DNA of 64,000 nt from assembly GCA_041302525.1 (NCBI GenBank), contig JBFYQX010000005.1, positions 8,213-72,212 on the forward strand. The letters are read 5' to 3'. Positions 138-5,337 of the stretch are shown in pieces. The stretch's first letter is position 1. Each line of letters begins with the position of its first letter. The DNA is from Candidatus Bipolaricaulota bacterium. GTDB taxonomy: Bacteria > Bipolaricaulota > Bipolaricaulia > UBA7950 > UBA9294. The translations under genes and the position numbers were made by a program. The notes under the pieces are model-generated. The model had not been told where the DNA came from. It did no database searches and worked only from the letters and a program-made list of their open reading frames with translations.

Positions 138-419
138 TCACGTTGCGATCTCCTCTCCTTGCGTTCGTTCAGCGGCGACGCGCATCATCACGCGGACGCT
201 GTCAGCCAGTTCGTTGGCTTTCACGAGCACGAGGCAGCAAACCCTTCCGCCGGACTCAACCGTTGTCAGCGCGAGTCGATCGCCGGCCACAAGGCCCATC
301 CGATCCCGGACGTCCTTTGGAAGAACCATCTGGCCTCGCTCGTCGACGCGAACGATCGCGGAGACTTGGCAGCACTCGCCACATCGCGTCTCTTCGCTCC
401 GCTTCCGCGTCTCACTCAT
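138..419 (-). CDS. AbrB/MazE/SpoVT-family (looped-hinge helix) DNA-binding domain protein, 93 aa
   Basis: ATG at 419 is preceded by AGGAGG with 5-6 nt spacing. The motif VRVDERGQMVLPKDVRDRMGL is typical of the SpoVT/AbrB swapped-hairpin domain. An unusual CGECC motif lies near the N-terminus. Confidence 0.6.
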   Translation of the reverse strand: MSETRKRSEETRCGECCQVSAIVRVDERGQMVLPKDVRDRMGLVAGDRLALTTVESGGRVCCLVLVKANELADSVRVMMRVAAERTQGEEIAT

Positions 420-2428: not shown

Positions 2429-3343
2429 TTAGGGCTGGATGTACTTGTACCACGACATCGAACGAACCACGTCGGGCCCTCCAATGGCCGCGTAGAGCCT
2501 CTTCGGGATGAGGTCGTAGCCGCCGATGTGCATGACGAGCGCGCCCATGTCGGCGAGCCGGCGCACGGCTTCGGCCATCACGGCCTTCCCGAGCCCTCGG
2601 TGTTGATGCTCGGGCGCCGTGCCGACCGGAGCGAAGTAGCCGGATCGCGTCGCGTCGTCGTACCACATCGTGCAGAACGCGGCCACCTCCCCCGAGCGGG
2701 CGATCGCCACGATGTCGAGGTCCCGCCGGTAGAGGGGCGCCCGCTGCAGGTTGCGATACCAGTCCGGGCCTTGGTACGCGTCGCTAGAATCGTCAGGATG
2801 GAAGGCGCGCCACGAGGCCCAGCTTCGCGCGGGCACCTCCTCGGAACCGCCGAGCGAGCGCACGACGTATCCGGCGGGGACCGGCCCTTGCGGCAGCGGG
2901 CCGGTGAGCTCGAGTCGACGCTGGTCCTCCCAGTGCTCGTGGATCTTGTAGCCCCGCGCCGCGAGCATCCCCTCGCGCAGGCGGTCGCCCTCGCGAGTCG
3001 GGACGATCAATAGGCGCCCCCGCTCCGTTGGCGACGTCAGGTGCCTCTCGGCCGCGTCCACCATGGCGTCTTCCAGCTCCGCCGTCCGCACGTCCGGATG
3101 GACGCTCAAGAAGGCGTCGCCCCCGCCGCTCTCGGACACGGCCAACGCGACCAGCTCGCCGGACGCTGTCTCCCAGAACAGCGCGTCGCTCAAGCTCTGG
3201 TCGCACGTCGCGACCATGTGCCATCGCCAGTAGTCGAACCGCCCAAGCGGCCACGAGATCTCGCGGCGGTGGTTGGCGAGGTACGCCTGCCGAAGGAAGC
3301 CGCGAATACGCCACACGTCGTCTTCATGCTCCAAGTGCCTCAT
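2429..3343 (-). CDS. two-domain GNAT family N-acetyltransferase, ~304 aa
   Basis: Two tandem GNAT-like halves. The C-terminal half carries an acetyl-CoA-binding motif (QHRGLGKAVMAEAVRRLADMG). The start at 3343 (MRHLEHEDD) is tentative because the RBS is weak. Confidence 0.7.
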   Translation of the reverse strand: MRHLEHEDDVWRIRGFLRQAYLANHRREISWPLGRFDYWRWHMVATCDQSLSDALFWETASGELVALAVSESGGGDAFLSVHPDVRTAELEDAMVDAAERHLTSPTERGRLLIVPTREGDRLREGMLAARGYKIHEHWEDQRRLELTGPLPQGPVPAGYVVRSLGGSEEVPARSWASWRAFHPDDSSDAYQGPDWYRNLQRAPLYRRDLDIVAIARSGEVAAFCTMWYDDATRSGYFAPVGTAPEHQHRGLGKAVMAEAVRRLADMGALVMHIGGYDLIPKRLYAAIGGPDVVRSMSWYKYIQP

Positions 3344-3854
3344 CAGGAAGTTCACAACAGGTCCTTTCGTCAAATGGGCTCTGTGCATCCACGCGGGATG
3401 CGCTGTTCGCGCGGTCCGAGGACATCGAGGAACGCCGCACCAGATCGGCTGTGGGTTCGGTAGGCAAAGAGAAGACAACACCCAAGAGAGCGGGTCACGG
3501 TGCTTCGGTCCGTCCTACGAATCGGTCCGCAGTCCGCGAGCTATTCCACTGGGTTCATCTCCTCTTTCTGCACCGAGCGCTGTGTGCGAGCTTGTGTCAA
3601 GCCCTCGCTCGGGTGAGATGGGGCGTAGTATGAGCGATGGCTTGTTCTGCGACAACGTGAGCTGCTGCGCCGGGTCTCGCGCGGCGGGCTCGGGCGCTCG
3701 AGGGGGGGCGCCGGGCCAAGGTGGTTGCCGGTCAAGCGCGCGAGGCTCTGCCGATCGCGGGATCGGGAGTCCCGCGACGGAAGGGACCGCGTGCGGCGCG
3801 CGCCGTGGAGCACCGAGGCGACGTGGGTGGCAGCCGCCGCGCGCAGCTCCTACC

Positions 3855-4451
3855 ATGCCGGCGATGAACGCCGTGCGGAAGGCCGTCATCGTCGCGGGGC
3901 CGAATGGGGCGGGGAAGTCCACATTCGTGCACCAGTACCTGGAGACCCACCCTGGGTTCGTCTATCTGTGCGCCGACGACATCGCGCTCGAACTCTGCCC
4001 AAGCCGCCCGGAGACGGCGTACATCAGCGCGGGCAAAGTCTTCTTCCGCCGGCTGCGCGTCCTTGTCGCCGAGCAGCGGAGCTTCATCACCGAGGTCACG
4101 CTCTCGAGCTCCCGTCTCGCTCGGCACTTCGCCCGTTTCCGCGCCGCCGGCTACCAGGTCGAACTGGTGTTCATCCACCTGGAGTCGGCCGAGCTGTGCG
4201 TGGCCCGCGTCGCGGAGCGCGTTCGCAAGGGCGGCCATCGGGTGGCCCCGGCAGACGTCCGGCGAAGGTACCGGCGGAGCGTGGACAACTTCTGGCACCG
4301 TTACCGGCCGATTGCCGACGGGTGGTTCTTGATGCAGAACTCGTCCCAGTCGTTCAGCCTCGTTGCCTACGGCACAAACGCGTCCTTGATCGTCGAGGAC
4401 TCGCCGTTGTATGATGCCTTCTTAAGAGGTCTAGTGGATGCAACGTCCTAA
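3855..4451 (+). CDS. zeta-toxin-like / COG4185-type P-loop ATPase (AAA_33-like), ~198 aa
   Basis: Walker A motif GPNGAGKST sits directly after the start, in a ~190-aa single-domain P-loop fold. ATG at 3855 (MPAMNAV); the upstream frame is low-complexity R/G-rich with poorer GC3. Confidence 0.7.
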   Translation: MPAMNAVRKAVIVAGPNGAGKSTFVHQYLETHPGFVYLCADDIALELCPSRPETAYISAGKVFFRRLRVLVAEQRSFITEVTLSSSRLARHFARFRAAGYQVELVFIHLESAELCVARVAERVRKGGHRVAPADVRRRYRRSVDNFWHRYRPIADGWFLMQNSSQSFSLVAYGTNASLIVEDSPLYDAFLRGLVDATS

Positions 4452-4728
4452 GACGAATCGGGTGGGGCTGAGAGAGCAAGCGCGGCATCTTGAGCGCATC
4501 GGCGCCGAAGCGGCGCGACGAGCGCAACAGGAGAGCCGTCGCCGCGGCGTGCCGAATGTCTATTCGTGGCGCGGTCGGCTGGTCTTCGAACACCCGCACT
4601 CTGGTCGACTGCTGAACTTCGATCCCGCGGCGCCGCGCACGCTGCGGGCCGTGGGTGCCCTCTCGCGGGGCTTCCGCCAAGCTGGCCGCCATCTCCAGAT
4701 CTTCCTCCGCGCAACGCGGTTCGAGTAA
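4438..4728 (+). CDS. hypothetical small basic protein, 96 aa, overlapping the stop of the upstream ATPase gene
   Basis: ATG at 4438 follows an AAGAGG-like RBS and overlaps the upstream stop by 14 nt. Arg-rich, no recognisable domain. GC3 is somewhat below the window norm. Confidence 0.3.
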   Translation: MQRPKTNRVGLREQARHLERIGAEAARRAQQESRRRGVPNVYSWRGRLVFEHPHSGRLLNFDPAAPRTLRAVGALSRGFRQAGRHLQIFLRATRFE

Positions 4729-4767
4729 CGAAGTGCCCGGAGCCTTCCGGTACCTCATCTTGTGATC

Positions 4768-5337
4768 TCATCGCGACGCCGTGTTGTTGAAGAGTGCCCG
4801 GCTCTTGAACGGGATGAGCGCGAGGGAGACGGCCTGCTGATAGAGCGCCACGCGGTCGATGGCGTCACCCGTCAGGAGCCCCACGGCGCCGGTGTCCCGC
4901 TTGGAGTCCGTCTTGCCAAACACTCGGTCGTCGGCGACGCCAAGCTCGAGGCCTTGGCGCACGAGTCCAGCGACGGCTGCGGGGAGGAAGAATGTCGCCG
5001 TCCGCGCTTGCCCTATGTCGCTGTCTGACTGCACCGCGACCCACGCGTACGCGGTCATCTCGTCGCCGAGGTCGGTGACCCCGCCCTCGATGCCGACCCA
5101 GTAGTCGGCCTGCGGCGCCAGGCGCTGCGCGGCCATCGCGCGGCCGCACGCCCCGCGCCGGGTTTCGTCATCGCCGTGGGGCTGCGCTGCGGCGCATGCC
5201 GGGACGGGCTGGCTGCGCACCTCGACCACCGCCGCGGGGAACATGGCTGCGAAGCCGCGCGCCGTAGCGCGGAGCTTGACTGGATTCGTCGACGCAACGA
5301 CCACGACGACGCGCTCCTCGCTGTGCACGCGATTCAC
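4768..5337 (-). CDS. yjjX: inosine/xanthosine triphosphatase, YjjX (DUF84) non-canonical purine NTP phosphatase family
   Basis: Strong match from memory to E. coli YjjX (VVVVVASTNPVK..WVGIEGG..ATFFLP..YQQAVSLALIPF). Start is ambiguous: GTG at 5337 or 5328, or TTG at 5379. Confidence 0.75.
   Translation of the reverse strand: MNRVHSEERVVVVVASTNPVKLRATARGFAAMFPAAVVEVRSQPVPACAAAQPHGDDETRRGACGRAMAAQRLAPQADYWVGIEGGVTDLGDEMTAYAWVAVQSDSDIGQARTATFFLPAAVAGLVRQGLELGVADDRVFGKTDSKRDTGAVGLLTGDAIDRVALYQQAVSLALIPFKSRALFNNTASR

What the first reader, a model, noticed from the sequence alone, without database searches (positions are those of the whole stretch)
3344..4767. Zeta-toxin-like P-loop ATPase with an overlapping downstream small basic ORF and a 510-nt non-coding upstream gap
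The 3855-4451 product is a compact P-loop protein (GPNGAGKST at its N-terminus) of the zeta-toxin/COG4185 type; zeta toxins are UDP-GlcNAc kinases. It has no upstream epsilon-like antitoxin ORF. Instead a 96-aa Arg-rich ORF with no domain overlaps its stop by 14 nt. A 510-nt gap precedes it, containing hairpins such as CGCGGGA-N7-TCCCGCG near 3760 and no convincing ORF. This could be a reversed-order or novel-partner toxin-antitoxin or defence pair.
Basis: partly seen in the sequence, partly recalled or inferred. Interest (0 to 1): 0.5.

Follow-up and report, generated by a model that had tools for sequence, protein, structure and literature searches.

The report
Zeta-like kinase with downstream small partner
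A short zeta-toxin-like kinase gene is followed by an overlapping small gene, and this pair recurs across many bacterial phyla and on plasmids, so it is probably a toxin-antitoxin-type module whose partner protein family has never been named.

Summary
Window 3855-4451 (+) encodes a 198-aa P-loop protein that passes the Pfam AAA_33 and Zeta_toxin thresholds. Its AlphaFold model is closest to zeta toxin, PezT, AvrRxo1 and polynucleotide kinases.

The 96-aa ORF at 4438-4728 overlaps the ATPase stop by 14 nt and is a real gene. Its dN/dS is 0.10, the same as the ATPase.

In 70 of 80 distant loci (33-47% ATPase identity, many phyla) the ATPase is followed directly by a small ORF of one family, mostly with a 4-nt ATGA overlap. 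This family has a long helix plus a beta-hairpin, about 3,100 clusters at 50% identity, no Pfam or NCBIfam model, and only 'hypothetical' names. Natural ATPase-partner fusions exist.

The same ATPase family in Actinobacteria pairs with an upstream ParD-like antitoxin instead. That is the architecture of the experimentally toxic Rv0366c/Rv0367c pair.

The best reading is a toxin-first, type II TA-like module with an undescribed antitoxin family. In this lineage it is chromosomally fixed. Toxicity and neutralisation are inferred, not shown.

The roughly 500-nt upstream gap is unrelated. Relatives carry an ada-like gene there, the hairpin is not conserved, and the only conserved block belongs to the divergent GNAT operon.

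The parts
3855..4451 (+). Short zeta-toxin-like P-loop kinase (198 aa). It has Walker A GPNGAGKS at 15-22, D41/D42, E80, R118/R122, G126-G127-H128 and R137-R138, all intact. An alternative start is possible at M4 (3864).
4438..4728 (+). Small basic partner protein (96 aa, pI 12), the putative antitoxin. The conserved core is residues 1-62: helix 6-36 and beta-hairpin 40-51, with motif RIGxxAxxxAQxExRRxGxPNxYSxxGxxxFExP. Residues 63-96 form a clade-specific C-terminal helix.
   Evidence: dN/dS is 0.105 overall, 0.100 for the core and 0.109 for the extension. Homologues are listed. A 75-aa version in L005 keeps only the core. tblastn hits the ORF downstream of the ATPase in L006 (1.7e-10) and L007 (1e-8). 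hhalign to the main partner family gives 91-94% probability, E 1e-6 to 9e-8. AF2 pLDDT is 80, and above 90 over residues 11-50.
4424..4451 (+). Translation-initiation region of the small ORF, embedded in the ATPase 3' end. It comprises SD-like AAGAGG (4424-4429), an 8-nt spacer, ATG 4438, and the 14-nt overlap up to the ATPase TAA (4449-4451).
   Evidence: Read from the sequence. It is conserved in L003, L086, L088-L090, with GGGGGG in L005. The last 19 ATPase codons hold 9 A/T-ending codons, including TTA, AGA and CTA, compared with 1-4 per 20 elsewhere.
4386..4415 (+). Sigma-70-like promoter candidate inside the ATPase gene (TTGATC, 18 nt, TATGAT). It could give the small ORF its own transcript. 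This is inferred only.
   Evidence: It is the only promoter-like hit in 3300-4900, where shuffles give a mean of 0.1. Both hexamers are kept in all relatives, including the rare TAT and GAT codons, but they lie in conserved codons, so this is not independent proof.
3356..3854 (.). Divergent intergenic region between the GNAT gene (-) and the ATPase (+). It is not part of the module. It contains a non-conserved hairpin (3755-3777) and a conserved GNAT-linked block (3489-3571) with a 5-codon mini-ORF on the minus strand (3558..3541).
   Evidence: Relatives L003, L086 and L088-L090 carry an ada-like gene here. There is no Ada remnant in the window. The only conserved block is present just where GNAT is present. 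Rfam gives nothing.

Best explanation
This is a two-gene, toxin-first, type II toxin-antitoxin-like module.

The first gene encodes a short (about 190-200 aa) zeta/PezT-superfamily P-loop kinase of the COG4185 / Rv0366c type. By analogy with tested relatives, it phosphorylates an essential metabolite or nucleic acid and arrests growth. The substrate is probably not UDP-GlcNAc.

The second gene is translationally coupled through a 14-nt overlap and an embedded ribosome-binding site. It may also have its own internal promoter. It encodes a small basic protein consisting of a long helix with an Ala-rich face followed by a beta-hairpin. This protein is proposed to bind the kinase and block its active-site cleft, as epsilon does for zeta and Arc1 does for AvrRxo1.

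Shown here: both genes are real, intact, co-conserved, co-oriented, overlapping and under equal purifying selection. The pairing recurs across phyla and on plasmids, and the two are sometimes fused.

Inferred: physical binding, toxicity, neutralisation and substrate.

In this lineage the module is a single, vertically inherited chromosomal copy in conserved synteny, not a recently mobile element.

2. Link to tested toxins. Motif positions match Rv0366c (9-GPNGAGKS-16, D36, E75, R116, H122), which is bacteriostatic and rescued by Rv0367c (PMC6362051). A 195-aa AAA_33 toxin of Mycobacterium sp. MHSD3 behaves likewise (PMC5728571). The window ATPase is 39% identical to a Rhodococcus plasmid ATPase with that same ParD_like-upstream architecture.

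3. Partner conservation. Of 80 distant loci, 70 have a downstream small ORF matching one HMM. Of 67 such pairs, 40 overlap by ATGA. The window ORF joins that family by profile-profile comparison. The family has 3,107 representative clusters.

4. Rosetta-stone fusions. P0096 and P0097 (255 aa) have the partner motif at residues 219-250.

5. Mix-and-match partners on one toxin family, which is a TA hallmark. They include ParD_like upstream, the small partner downstream, and DUF6884 downstream in Cupriavidus.

6. TA and defence contexts elsewhere. Examples are a conjugative Legionella plasmid next to Tn3, a Synechocystis pSYSG island with RM, PIN and DarTG, and neighbours HicAB, SMODS, PglZ and type I RM. 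In all, 364 plasmid records hold homologues.

7. Equal selection. dN/dS is 0.105 for the small ORF and 0.115 for the ATPase.
Against: No experiment exists on any ATPase with this downstream partner type. Toxicity is extrapolated from relatives with a different antitoxin.

In this lineage the pair sits in stable synteny among ordinary genes, with no mobile-element marks. It is as conserved as its neighbours or more so, which would also fit a housekeeping role.

Both proteins are strongly basic (pI 9.75 and 12.0; family medians 9.3 and 9.7). There is therefore no simple charge complementarity, and nucleic-acid binding by either protein is possible.

The partner has no recognisable DNA-binding domain for autoregulation.

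The window partner matches the main partner HMM only at profile-profile level. Direct hmmsearch gives E 0.33-0.8.

PADLOC has no model for the pair.
Confidence: 0.6

Rival explanations
1. The ATPase is a non-toxic kinase with a regulatory or adaptor subunit. It would be a nucleic-acid or nucleotide kinase, for example a PNK-like RNA or DNA 5'-OH kinase. The small basic protein would target or activate it, in repair or as the sensor or regulator arm of a defence system, rather than neutralise it.
Against: Close family members with the ParD-like partner are experimentally toxic (PMC6362051, PMC5728571). The interchangeable partner types and the plasmid and TA-island contexts are typical of TA modules. 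The aligned length is longer to zeta, PezT and AvrRxo1 (168-186 residues) than to PNKs (136-152).
Confidence: 0.27
2. The small protein is chiefly a nucleic-acid-binding autoregulator or a phosphorylation substrate of the kinase, not a steric inhibitor.
For: It has extreme basicity (pI 12, 21% Arg) and a long basic helix. In the main subfamily a Thr in the G-T-P motif is common.
Confidence: 0.1
3. The 96-aa ORF is a spurious high-GC open frame, and the ATPase is an orphan zeta-like gene.
For: GC3 of the ORF is only 0.72, compared with 0.85 for the ATPase. An antisense ORF (4354-4758) has similar composition. No domain hit was found.
Against: dN/dS is 0.105 in frame. It is above 1 in four other frames and 0.17 in the wobble-sharing antisense frame. 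There are protein-level homologues at 36-45% identity in other phyla at the same position. The ribosome-binding site and overlap are conserved.
Confidence: 0.02

Closest known systems
PezAT-Mtb (Rv0367c-Rv0366c) and the Mycobacterium sp. MHSD3 zeta-like TA (PMC6362051, PMC5728571)
   Same: The toxin belongs to the same short (about 195 aa) zeta-like AAA_33/Zeta_toxin family. It has GPNGAGK[ST], the catalytic Asp, Glu, Arg and a GGH lid. It lacks both the N-terminal helix and the UNAG-binding GTxR motif of classical zeta. The window ATPase is 39% identical to a Rhodococcus ATPase with that architecture.
   Different: In those systems the antitoxin is a 119-129-aa ParD-like/RHH protein encoded upstream. 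Here nothing lies upstream, and an unrelated 96-aa helix-plus-hairpin protein is encoded downstream and overlaps the toxin stop.
Epsilon/zeta and PezA/PezT (PDB 1gvn, 2p5t)
   Different: The classical toxins are 240-290 aa and phosphorylate UDP-GlcNAc through a GTxR motif that is absent here. Their antitoxin is encoded upstream and is a three-helix bundle. There is no sequence similarity between the partners.
AvrRxo1-Arc1 (PDB 4z8q; PMC4938570)
   Different: AvrRxo1 is about 420 aa, is a type III effector, and is a NAD kinase. Arc1 is all-helical with a KExFD...YExxYY motif, which is absent from this partner. The partner here is predicted to be helix plus beta-hairpin.
EzeT (fused epsilon-zeta of E. 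coli)
   Same: A toxin and its neutralising domain can be fused in one chain, as in P0096 and P0097 of this family.
   Different: In EzeT the antitoxin domain is N-terminal and epsilon-like. In this family the fused partner is C-terminal and unrelated.

Membership tests
Zeta_toxin superfamily (Pfam PF06414; zeta/PezT) | Profile HMM score above the curated threshold | tested here: met
   Zeta_toxin scores 38.2 bits against a cut-off of 22.3. AAA_33 scores 51.8 against 27.
Zeta_toxin superfamily (Pfam PF06414; zeta/PezT) | Walker A GxxGxGK[ST], plus the catalytic Asp, the Glu, and the Arg and Arg/His of the lid | tested here: met
   G15-S22, D41/D42, E80, R122 and H128 are invariant in A1. Their positions map onto Rv0366c D36, E75, R116 and H122, which the paper aligns to zeta D67, E116, R158 and R171.
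Zeta_toxin superfamily (Pfam PF06414; zeta/PezT) | Zeta-like three-dimensional fold | tested here: met
Zeta_toxin superfamily (Pfam PF06414; zeta/PezT) | GTxR UDP-GlcNAc-binding motif directly after the conserved Glu | tested here: not met
   The window has E80-V-T-L-S and the family consensus is E-T-T-L-S-G-R. The mapping is positional through Rv0366c rather than a direct structural superposition.
Zeta_toxin superfamily (Pfam PF06414; zeta/PezT) | Cognate epsilon or PezA antitoxin encoded upstream | tested here: not met
   The 499-nt upstream region has no conserved or Pfam-matching ORF. Relatives have only 110-140 nt before the ATPase.
Zeta_toxin superfamily (Pfam PF06414; zeta/PezT) | Growth arrest on expression, relieved by the partner | not testable with these tools
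   This needs an expression and rescue assay.
Short zeta-like toxins of PezT-Mtb (Rv0366c) / COG4185 type | About 195 aa, no N-terminal helix, GPNGAGK[ST] near the N-terminus, and an RVxxGGH lid | tested here: met
   The protein is 198 aa and its motif positions match the description of Rv0366c. It is 39% identical (E 1e-23) to a Rhodococcus ATPase preceded by ParD_like. JGI names for homologues read 'predicted ABC-type ATPase'. Rv0366c itself was not available for direct alignment.
Short zeta-like toxins of PezT-Mtb (Rv0366c) / COG4185 type | Upstream ParD-like/RHH antitoxin | tested here: not met
   None is found upstream. The partner is downstream and has no ParD_like match.
AvrRxo1-Arc1 module | Antitoxin gene immediately downstream of the zeta-like kinase gene | tested here: met
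   The 14-nt overlap places the small ORF downstream. The AvrRxo1-Arc1 gene order is described in PMC4938570.
AvrRxo1-Arc1 module | Arc1 signature KExFD(x25-27)(Y/L)ExxYY in an all-helical protein | tested here: not met
   The motif is absent from the 96-aa sequence. The model shows a helix plus a beta-hairpin.
Housekeeping small-molecule kinases (gluconate, shikimate, adenylate, guanylate) | Match to an NCBIfam equivalog at its cut-off | tested here: not met
Polynucleotide kinase (PNK) family | PNK-type fold and sequence match; 5'-OH polynucleotide substrate | tested here: inconclusive
Known anti-phage defence systems (PADLOC-DB v2) | Match of either protein to a system model | tested here: not met
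   The ATPase gives only P-loop-level hits (E 1e-3 or worse, about 20 residues). The small ORF gives none.

The most novel reading that the evidence does not exclude
The small protein's N-terminal Ala-faced helix may be a portable docking module for COG4185 kinases, not merely an antitoxin. In most loci it stands alone. In others it appears fused to HEPN, DUF3644, Eco57I-type methylase, HATPase_c_4 or DUF6988 domains, or to the kinase itself. On this reading the family would be a widespread, unrecognised kinase-centred defence or regulatory system in which the kinase is tethered to different effectors. It would also account for many of the 'orphan' zeta toxins reported in surveys that inspected only upstream genes.
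Probability: 0.17. Interest if true: 0.65.

Novelty: new variant of a known kind. Interest (0 to 1): 0.45.

Why it matters
Zeta/PezT toxins are a well-studied TA class. A 2023 survey still reported 'orphan' zeta toxins after searching only upstream genes for antitoxins (PMC10532202).

This locus is one member of a very large pairing: about 3,100 partner clusters at 50% identity, found in many phyla and on plasmids. In this pairing the missing partner sits downstream and belongs to a family with no Pfam or NCBIfam model and no name.

Recognising it would improve TA and defence annotation. Today these pairs are labelled 'zeta toxin family protein' plus 'hypothetical protein'. It would also define a third, unrelated antitoxin solution for one kinase fold, and give a tractable 50-aa inhibitor to probe what these short zeta-like kinases phosphorylate.

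For this particular genome it is an ordinary, stably inherited copy.

Tried and rejected
1. Ada pseudogene remnant in the gap. tblastn of the L003 Ada-like protein against the window gap gave only a 26-aa hit on the wrong strand, E 0.56. Rejected.

2. RNA element in the gap or module. Rfam at E <= 1 on 3200-4900, and at gathering threshold on the whole window, found nothing. The hairpin at 3756-3776 is moderately stable (z -2.55), but that stretch of the gap has no counterpart in relatives.

3. Known defence system. PADLOC gave no meaningful hit. PHROGs gave only weak PNK and thymidylate-kinase similarity.

5. A first regex-seeded HMM of partners failed because the seed was poor. It was replaced by an iterative phmmer/hmmsearch.

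6. Alignment A3 (fusion plus ATPases plus partners) misplaced the small proteins onto the ATPase lid. It was not used for structure prediction. The fusion was therefore not modelled, and no complex prediction was possible with the tools.

7. Direct alignment to PezT or zeta for the GTxR test. PDB sequence searches did not print that alignment, so the test rests on positional mapping through the Rv0366c paper.

8. Literature. There are no papers with COG4185 plus toxin. No description of a downstream partner for short zeta-like toxins was found.
Full report
OBSERVATION

The window is about 68% GC.

The ORF at 3855-4451 (+) encodes 198 aa with GPNGAGKST at residues 15-23. Its codon-position GC is 0.63/0.47/0.85, the signature of a real gene in this genome.

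The 96-aa ORF at 4438-4728 (+) starts 14 nt inside the ATPase gene. It has 20 Arg and pI 12.0.

The divergent GNAT gene ends at 3344 (ATG) or 3355 (GTG, the gene callers' choice). That leaves a gap of 510 or 499 nt.

The hairpin CGCGGGA-N7-TCCCGCG is at 3756-3776.

IS THE SMALL ORF REAL?

Its composition is ambiguous. GC3 is 0.72, and an antisense ORF has similar composition. I therefore tested selection.

Against the 77%-identical copy in L003, dN/dS is 0.105 in the annotated frame. The conserved core gives 0.100 and the C-terminal extension gives 0.109. The ATPase gives 0.115. Four of the five other frames give 1.6-3.6. The antisense frame that shares wobble positions gives 0.17.

Close homologues are all 96 aa. 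In L005 (ATPase 68% identical) a 75-aa version keeps only the first 62 or so residues.

The ORF start is preceded by AAGAGG at an 8-nt spacing. The last 19 ATPase codons carry 9 A/T-ending codons, including TTA, AGA and CTA, compared with 1-4 per 20 elsewhere. The ATPase 3' end is therefore shaped by signals for the downstream gene.

A sigma-70-like TTGATC-18-TATGAT lies at 4386-4415. It is the only such hit in the region, and both hexamers are kept in all relatives. Because it lies in conserved codons, it is only a candidate internal promoter.

WHAT THE ATPASE IS

Pfam gives AAA_33 at 51.8 bits and Zeta_toxin at 38.2 bits, both above threshold.

No NCBIfam equivalog for a housekeeping kinase comes near its cut-off. 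PADLOC has nothing beyond P-loop matches.

There are 1,397 homologues at E <= 1e-3, all about 170-210 aa. JGI names them 'predicted ABC-type ATPase'.

The family alignment has these invariant residues: GPNGAGK, A40-D41, E80, T82-L83, R118, R122, G126-G127-H128, R137-R138 and Y150.

Adenylate, gluconate and shikimate kinases score only 9.7-12.1.

The literature describes Rv0366c (197 aa; 9-GPNGAGKS-16, D36, E75, R116, H122). It lacks the UNAG-binding GTxR motif. It is bacteriostatic and is rescued by the upstream RHH/ParD-like Rv0367c (PMC6362051). A 195-aa AAA_33-type toxin of Mycobacterium sp. MHSD3 also has an upstream 119-aa ParD-like antitoxin (PMC5728571).

The window protein's motif positions match these. 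It is also 39% identical (E 1e-23) to a Rhodococcus plasmid ATPase that is directly preceded by a 119-aa ParD_like gene.

The ATPase therefore belongs to the short zeta-like family whose tested members are toxins. After E80 it reads V-T-L-S rather than G-T-x-R, so UDP-GlcNAc is an unlikely substrate. This last point is a positional inference.

THE PARTNER IS A FAMILY, AND TOXIN-FIRST IS THE RULE

A scan of one genome per species returned 80 loci with ATPases 33-47% identical to the window's. They come from Bacteroidota, Planctomycetota, Pseudomonadota, Acidobacteriota, Verrucomicrobiota, Chloroflexota, Nitrospirota and others.

In 70 of the 80, the ORF immediately downstream on the same strand matches one HMM built iteratively from these ORFs. 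In 40 of 67 pairs the overlap is the 4-nt ATGA.

The consensus is a helix '...AL+RAA..AR..A...' followed by 'G-T/x-P-l-v-V-w-r-D-G-K-v-V...P'.

The window ORF belongs to a divergent subfamily, RIGnRAvkKAQEENRRxGIPNvYSxnGkxxFELPDG, at 36-45% identity. Three results support this:

- tblastn places it on the downstream ORFs of L006 (1.7e-10) and L007 (1e-8).
- Profile-profile comparison joins the subfamily to the main family at 91-94% probability, E 1e-6 to 9e-8.
- Direct hmmsearch does not reach significance (E 0.33-0.8).

A profile search of 1.84 billion representatives finds 3,107 clusters at E <= 1e-3. Nearly all are 55-100 aa.

None of these proteins carries a Pfam or NCBIfam domain, and every source name that says anything is 'hypothetical protein'.

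EVIDENCE THAT THE TWO PROTEINS WORK TOGETHER

The evidence goes beyond adjacency, overlap and equal selection.

Two protein clusters (P0096 and P0097, 255 aa, 6 and 3 member sequences) are natural fusions. The partner motif is at residues 219-250, with E about 1e-9 against the partner HMM.

Partner homologues looked up independently again sit downstream of AAA_33/Zeta_toxin genes (L093, L095-L098). There is one exception inside a type I RM operon, next to a different zeta-like gene (L094).

On plasmids, 364 records hold ATPase homologues, annotated 'zeta toxin family protein'. Two were inspected:

- The Legionella pneumophila conjugative-plasmid copy lies beside a Tn3 transposase. It shows the same ATPase followed by an overlapping small hypothetical protein.
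- Synechocystis pSYSG sll8004/ssl8003 lies within an RM, PIN and DarTG island and shows the same arrangement. A TA survey of that organism listed those genes as TA-related but not meeting its criteria (PMC4963859).

In single loci the partner motif appears fused to DUF6988, HEPN_Swt1, HATPase_c_4, an Eco57I-type methylase or DUF3644. A PglZ gene follows in L035.

One ATPase family thus uses at least three partner arrangements: ParD_like upstream, the small partner downstream, and DUF6884 downstream in Cupriavidus.

THIS LINEAGE

In eight related loci the order is GNAT or MFS, then (ada-like), then ATPase plus small ORF, then (a small ORF), then the NTPase_I-T gene, rotamase, lipocalin, SDR and a DEAD helicase. 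The relatives' ATPases are 68-100% identical to the window's, and one is annotated Candidatus Bipolaricaulota.

Identity to the window across the five relatives compared is:

| Protein | Identity |
|---|---|
| ATPase | 68-85% |
| Small ORF | 70-93% |
| GNAT | 72-76% |
| NTPase | 59-67% |
| MFS | 80-89% |

The pair is single-copy in the window. It is vertically inherited and well maintained, and nothing marks it as recently mobile.

THE GAP

Five relatives (L003, L086, L088, L089, L090) carry an Ada_Zn_binding/HTH_18/DNA_binding_1 gene on the minus strand between GNAT or MFS and the ATPase. That leaves only 110-140 nt before the ATPase. The window, L001/L002 and L005 lack this gene.

No Ada remnant is detectable in the window. 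The hairpin region has no counterpart in relatives. Rfam finds nothing.

The only conserved block is 3489-3571, at 76-81% identity to L003, L086 and L005. It occurs only where the GNAT gene is present, and in L003 and L086 it lies on the GNAT side of ada.

Read on the GNAT strand, the block begins with a Shine-Dalgarno sequence and a 5-codon mini-ORF, M-N-P-V-E-stop (3558..3541). The mini-ORF is preserved through a synonymous change (CCA to CCC) and through start and stop substitutions (ATG to TTG, TAG to TAA).

The gap is therefore the 5' region of the divergent GNAT-MFS operon plus lineage-specific spacer. It is not a regulatory region peculiar to the ATPase.

MECHANISM AND RIVALS

I judge a toxin-first, type II TA-like module most likely (0.6). 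The kinase would be the growth-arresting component. The small protein would be translationally coupled, possibly also separately transcribed, and would bind and occlude the kinase.

Shown: gene reality, intact catalytic residues, co-conservation, overlap, fusions, alternative partners, and plasmid and defence-island contexts.

Inferred: binding, toxicity, neutralisation and substrate.

The main rival (0.27) is a non-toxic, PNK-like nucleic-acid kinase with an adaptor or activator subunit. It is favoured by the PNK fold tie, the basic pI of both proteins, the adaptor-like fusions and the stable chromosomal residence here.

A substrate or autoregulator role for the small protein is less likely (0.1). 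A spurious ORF is excluded.

COMPARISON AND NOVELTY

The module works like epsilon/zeta, PezAT-Mtb and AvrRxo1-Arc1, and its ATPase is a member of the Zeta_toxin/AAA_33 family.

It is not a member of the epsilon/zeta, PezAT or PezAT-Mtb systems, because the upstream-antitoxin feature was tested and not met. It is not an AvrRxo1-Arc1 system, because the Arc1 motif and fold were tested and not met.

The downstream order already has precedent in the superfamily (PMC4938570).

What appears undescribed is the partner family itself and the scale of the pairing. The 2023 PezAT review looked only upstream of 'orphan' zeta toxins (PMC10532202). My literature searches found no description of the downstream partner, though the searchable library is incomplete.

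I rate it a new variant of a known kind with moderate interest (0.45). It is informative for TA and defence annotation and readily testable, but it would not surprise a TA specialist used to mix-and-match partners.

Noticed in passing
window 3489-3571 (mini-ORF on minus strand 3558..3541): A conserved block of about 85 nt lies upstream of the GNAT-MFS-CMD operon on the minus strand. It begins with AGGAG plus a 5-codon mini-ORF, M-N-P-V-E-stop. The mini-ORF is kept in L005 through a synonymous CCA-to-CCC change, and in L086 through ATG-to-TTG and TAG-to-TAA changes. A CGGACCG direct repeat follows. The block is present only in relatives that have the GNAT gene. It may be a leader-peptide attenuator of an acetyltransferase and efflux operon. 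There is no Rfam hit, and only one compensatory pair in RNAalifold.
   Followed up: partly
window 3356-3854 vs L003 4178-5278, L086 2646-3881, L088 2794-3876, L089 2668-3876, L090 2763-3839: There is a presence/absence polymorphism of an Ada-like gene (Ada_Zn_binding + AraC HTH + O6-alkylguanine methyltransferase domain) divergently upstream of the ATPase. It is present in five relatives and absent from the window, L001/L002 and L005, with no detectable remnant.
   Followed up: partly
P0096, P0097 (255 aa; metagenomic contigs): These are natural single-chain fusions of the short zeta-like ATPase with the small-partner motif at the C-terminus (residues 219-250). They form a C-terminal counterpart to the N-terminal antitoxin domain of EzeT.
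   Followed up: partly
L038 3522-4343, L050 3525-4757, L068 3528-4541, L077 3447-5300, L085 3526-4632; L035 3679-6483: Downstream of the ATPase in these loci, the partner-like N-terminal helix continues in frame into larger proteins. These carry DUF6988, HEPN_Swt1, HATPase_c_4, an Eco57I-type methylase or DUF3644. In L035 a PglZ protein follows the small partner. There is one locus of each kind, and the start codons were not verified.
   Followed up: partly
L094 2501-3732: A small-partner homologue (P0143) lies without an adjacent short ATPase inside a type I RM operon (hsdM, hsdS, partner, a 78-aa ORF, a 249-aa Zeta_toxin protein, hsdR). It may partner a different zeta-like kinase, or it may be an orphan.
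   Followed up: no
L003 and L086 (both from assembly GCA_040961015.1): The same MAG holds two diverged copies of the whole syntenic locus on two contigs, with ATPases 78% and 83% identical to the window's. This suggests a mixed-strain bin or a large duplication.
   Followed up: no
window 138-419 (-), and upstream beyond the window start (L001 841-1982): A 93-aa AbrB/MazE-fold (PF04014) gene is directly followed by a SAM-dependent methyltransferase gene. The pairing is conserved in L001, L005 and L088-L090. This is an unusual partner for a MazE-like protein.
   Followed up: no
L003 6369-6659, L086 4872-5177, L088 4944-5240, L089 4943-5239 (minus strand): An extra 96-101-aa ORF with no Pfam hit lies between the small partner and the NTPase_I-T gene in four relatives. 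It is absent from the window, where only 39 nt separate the two genes.
   Followed up: no
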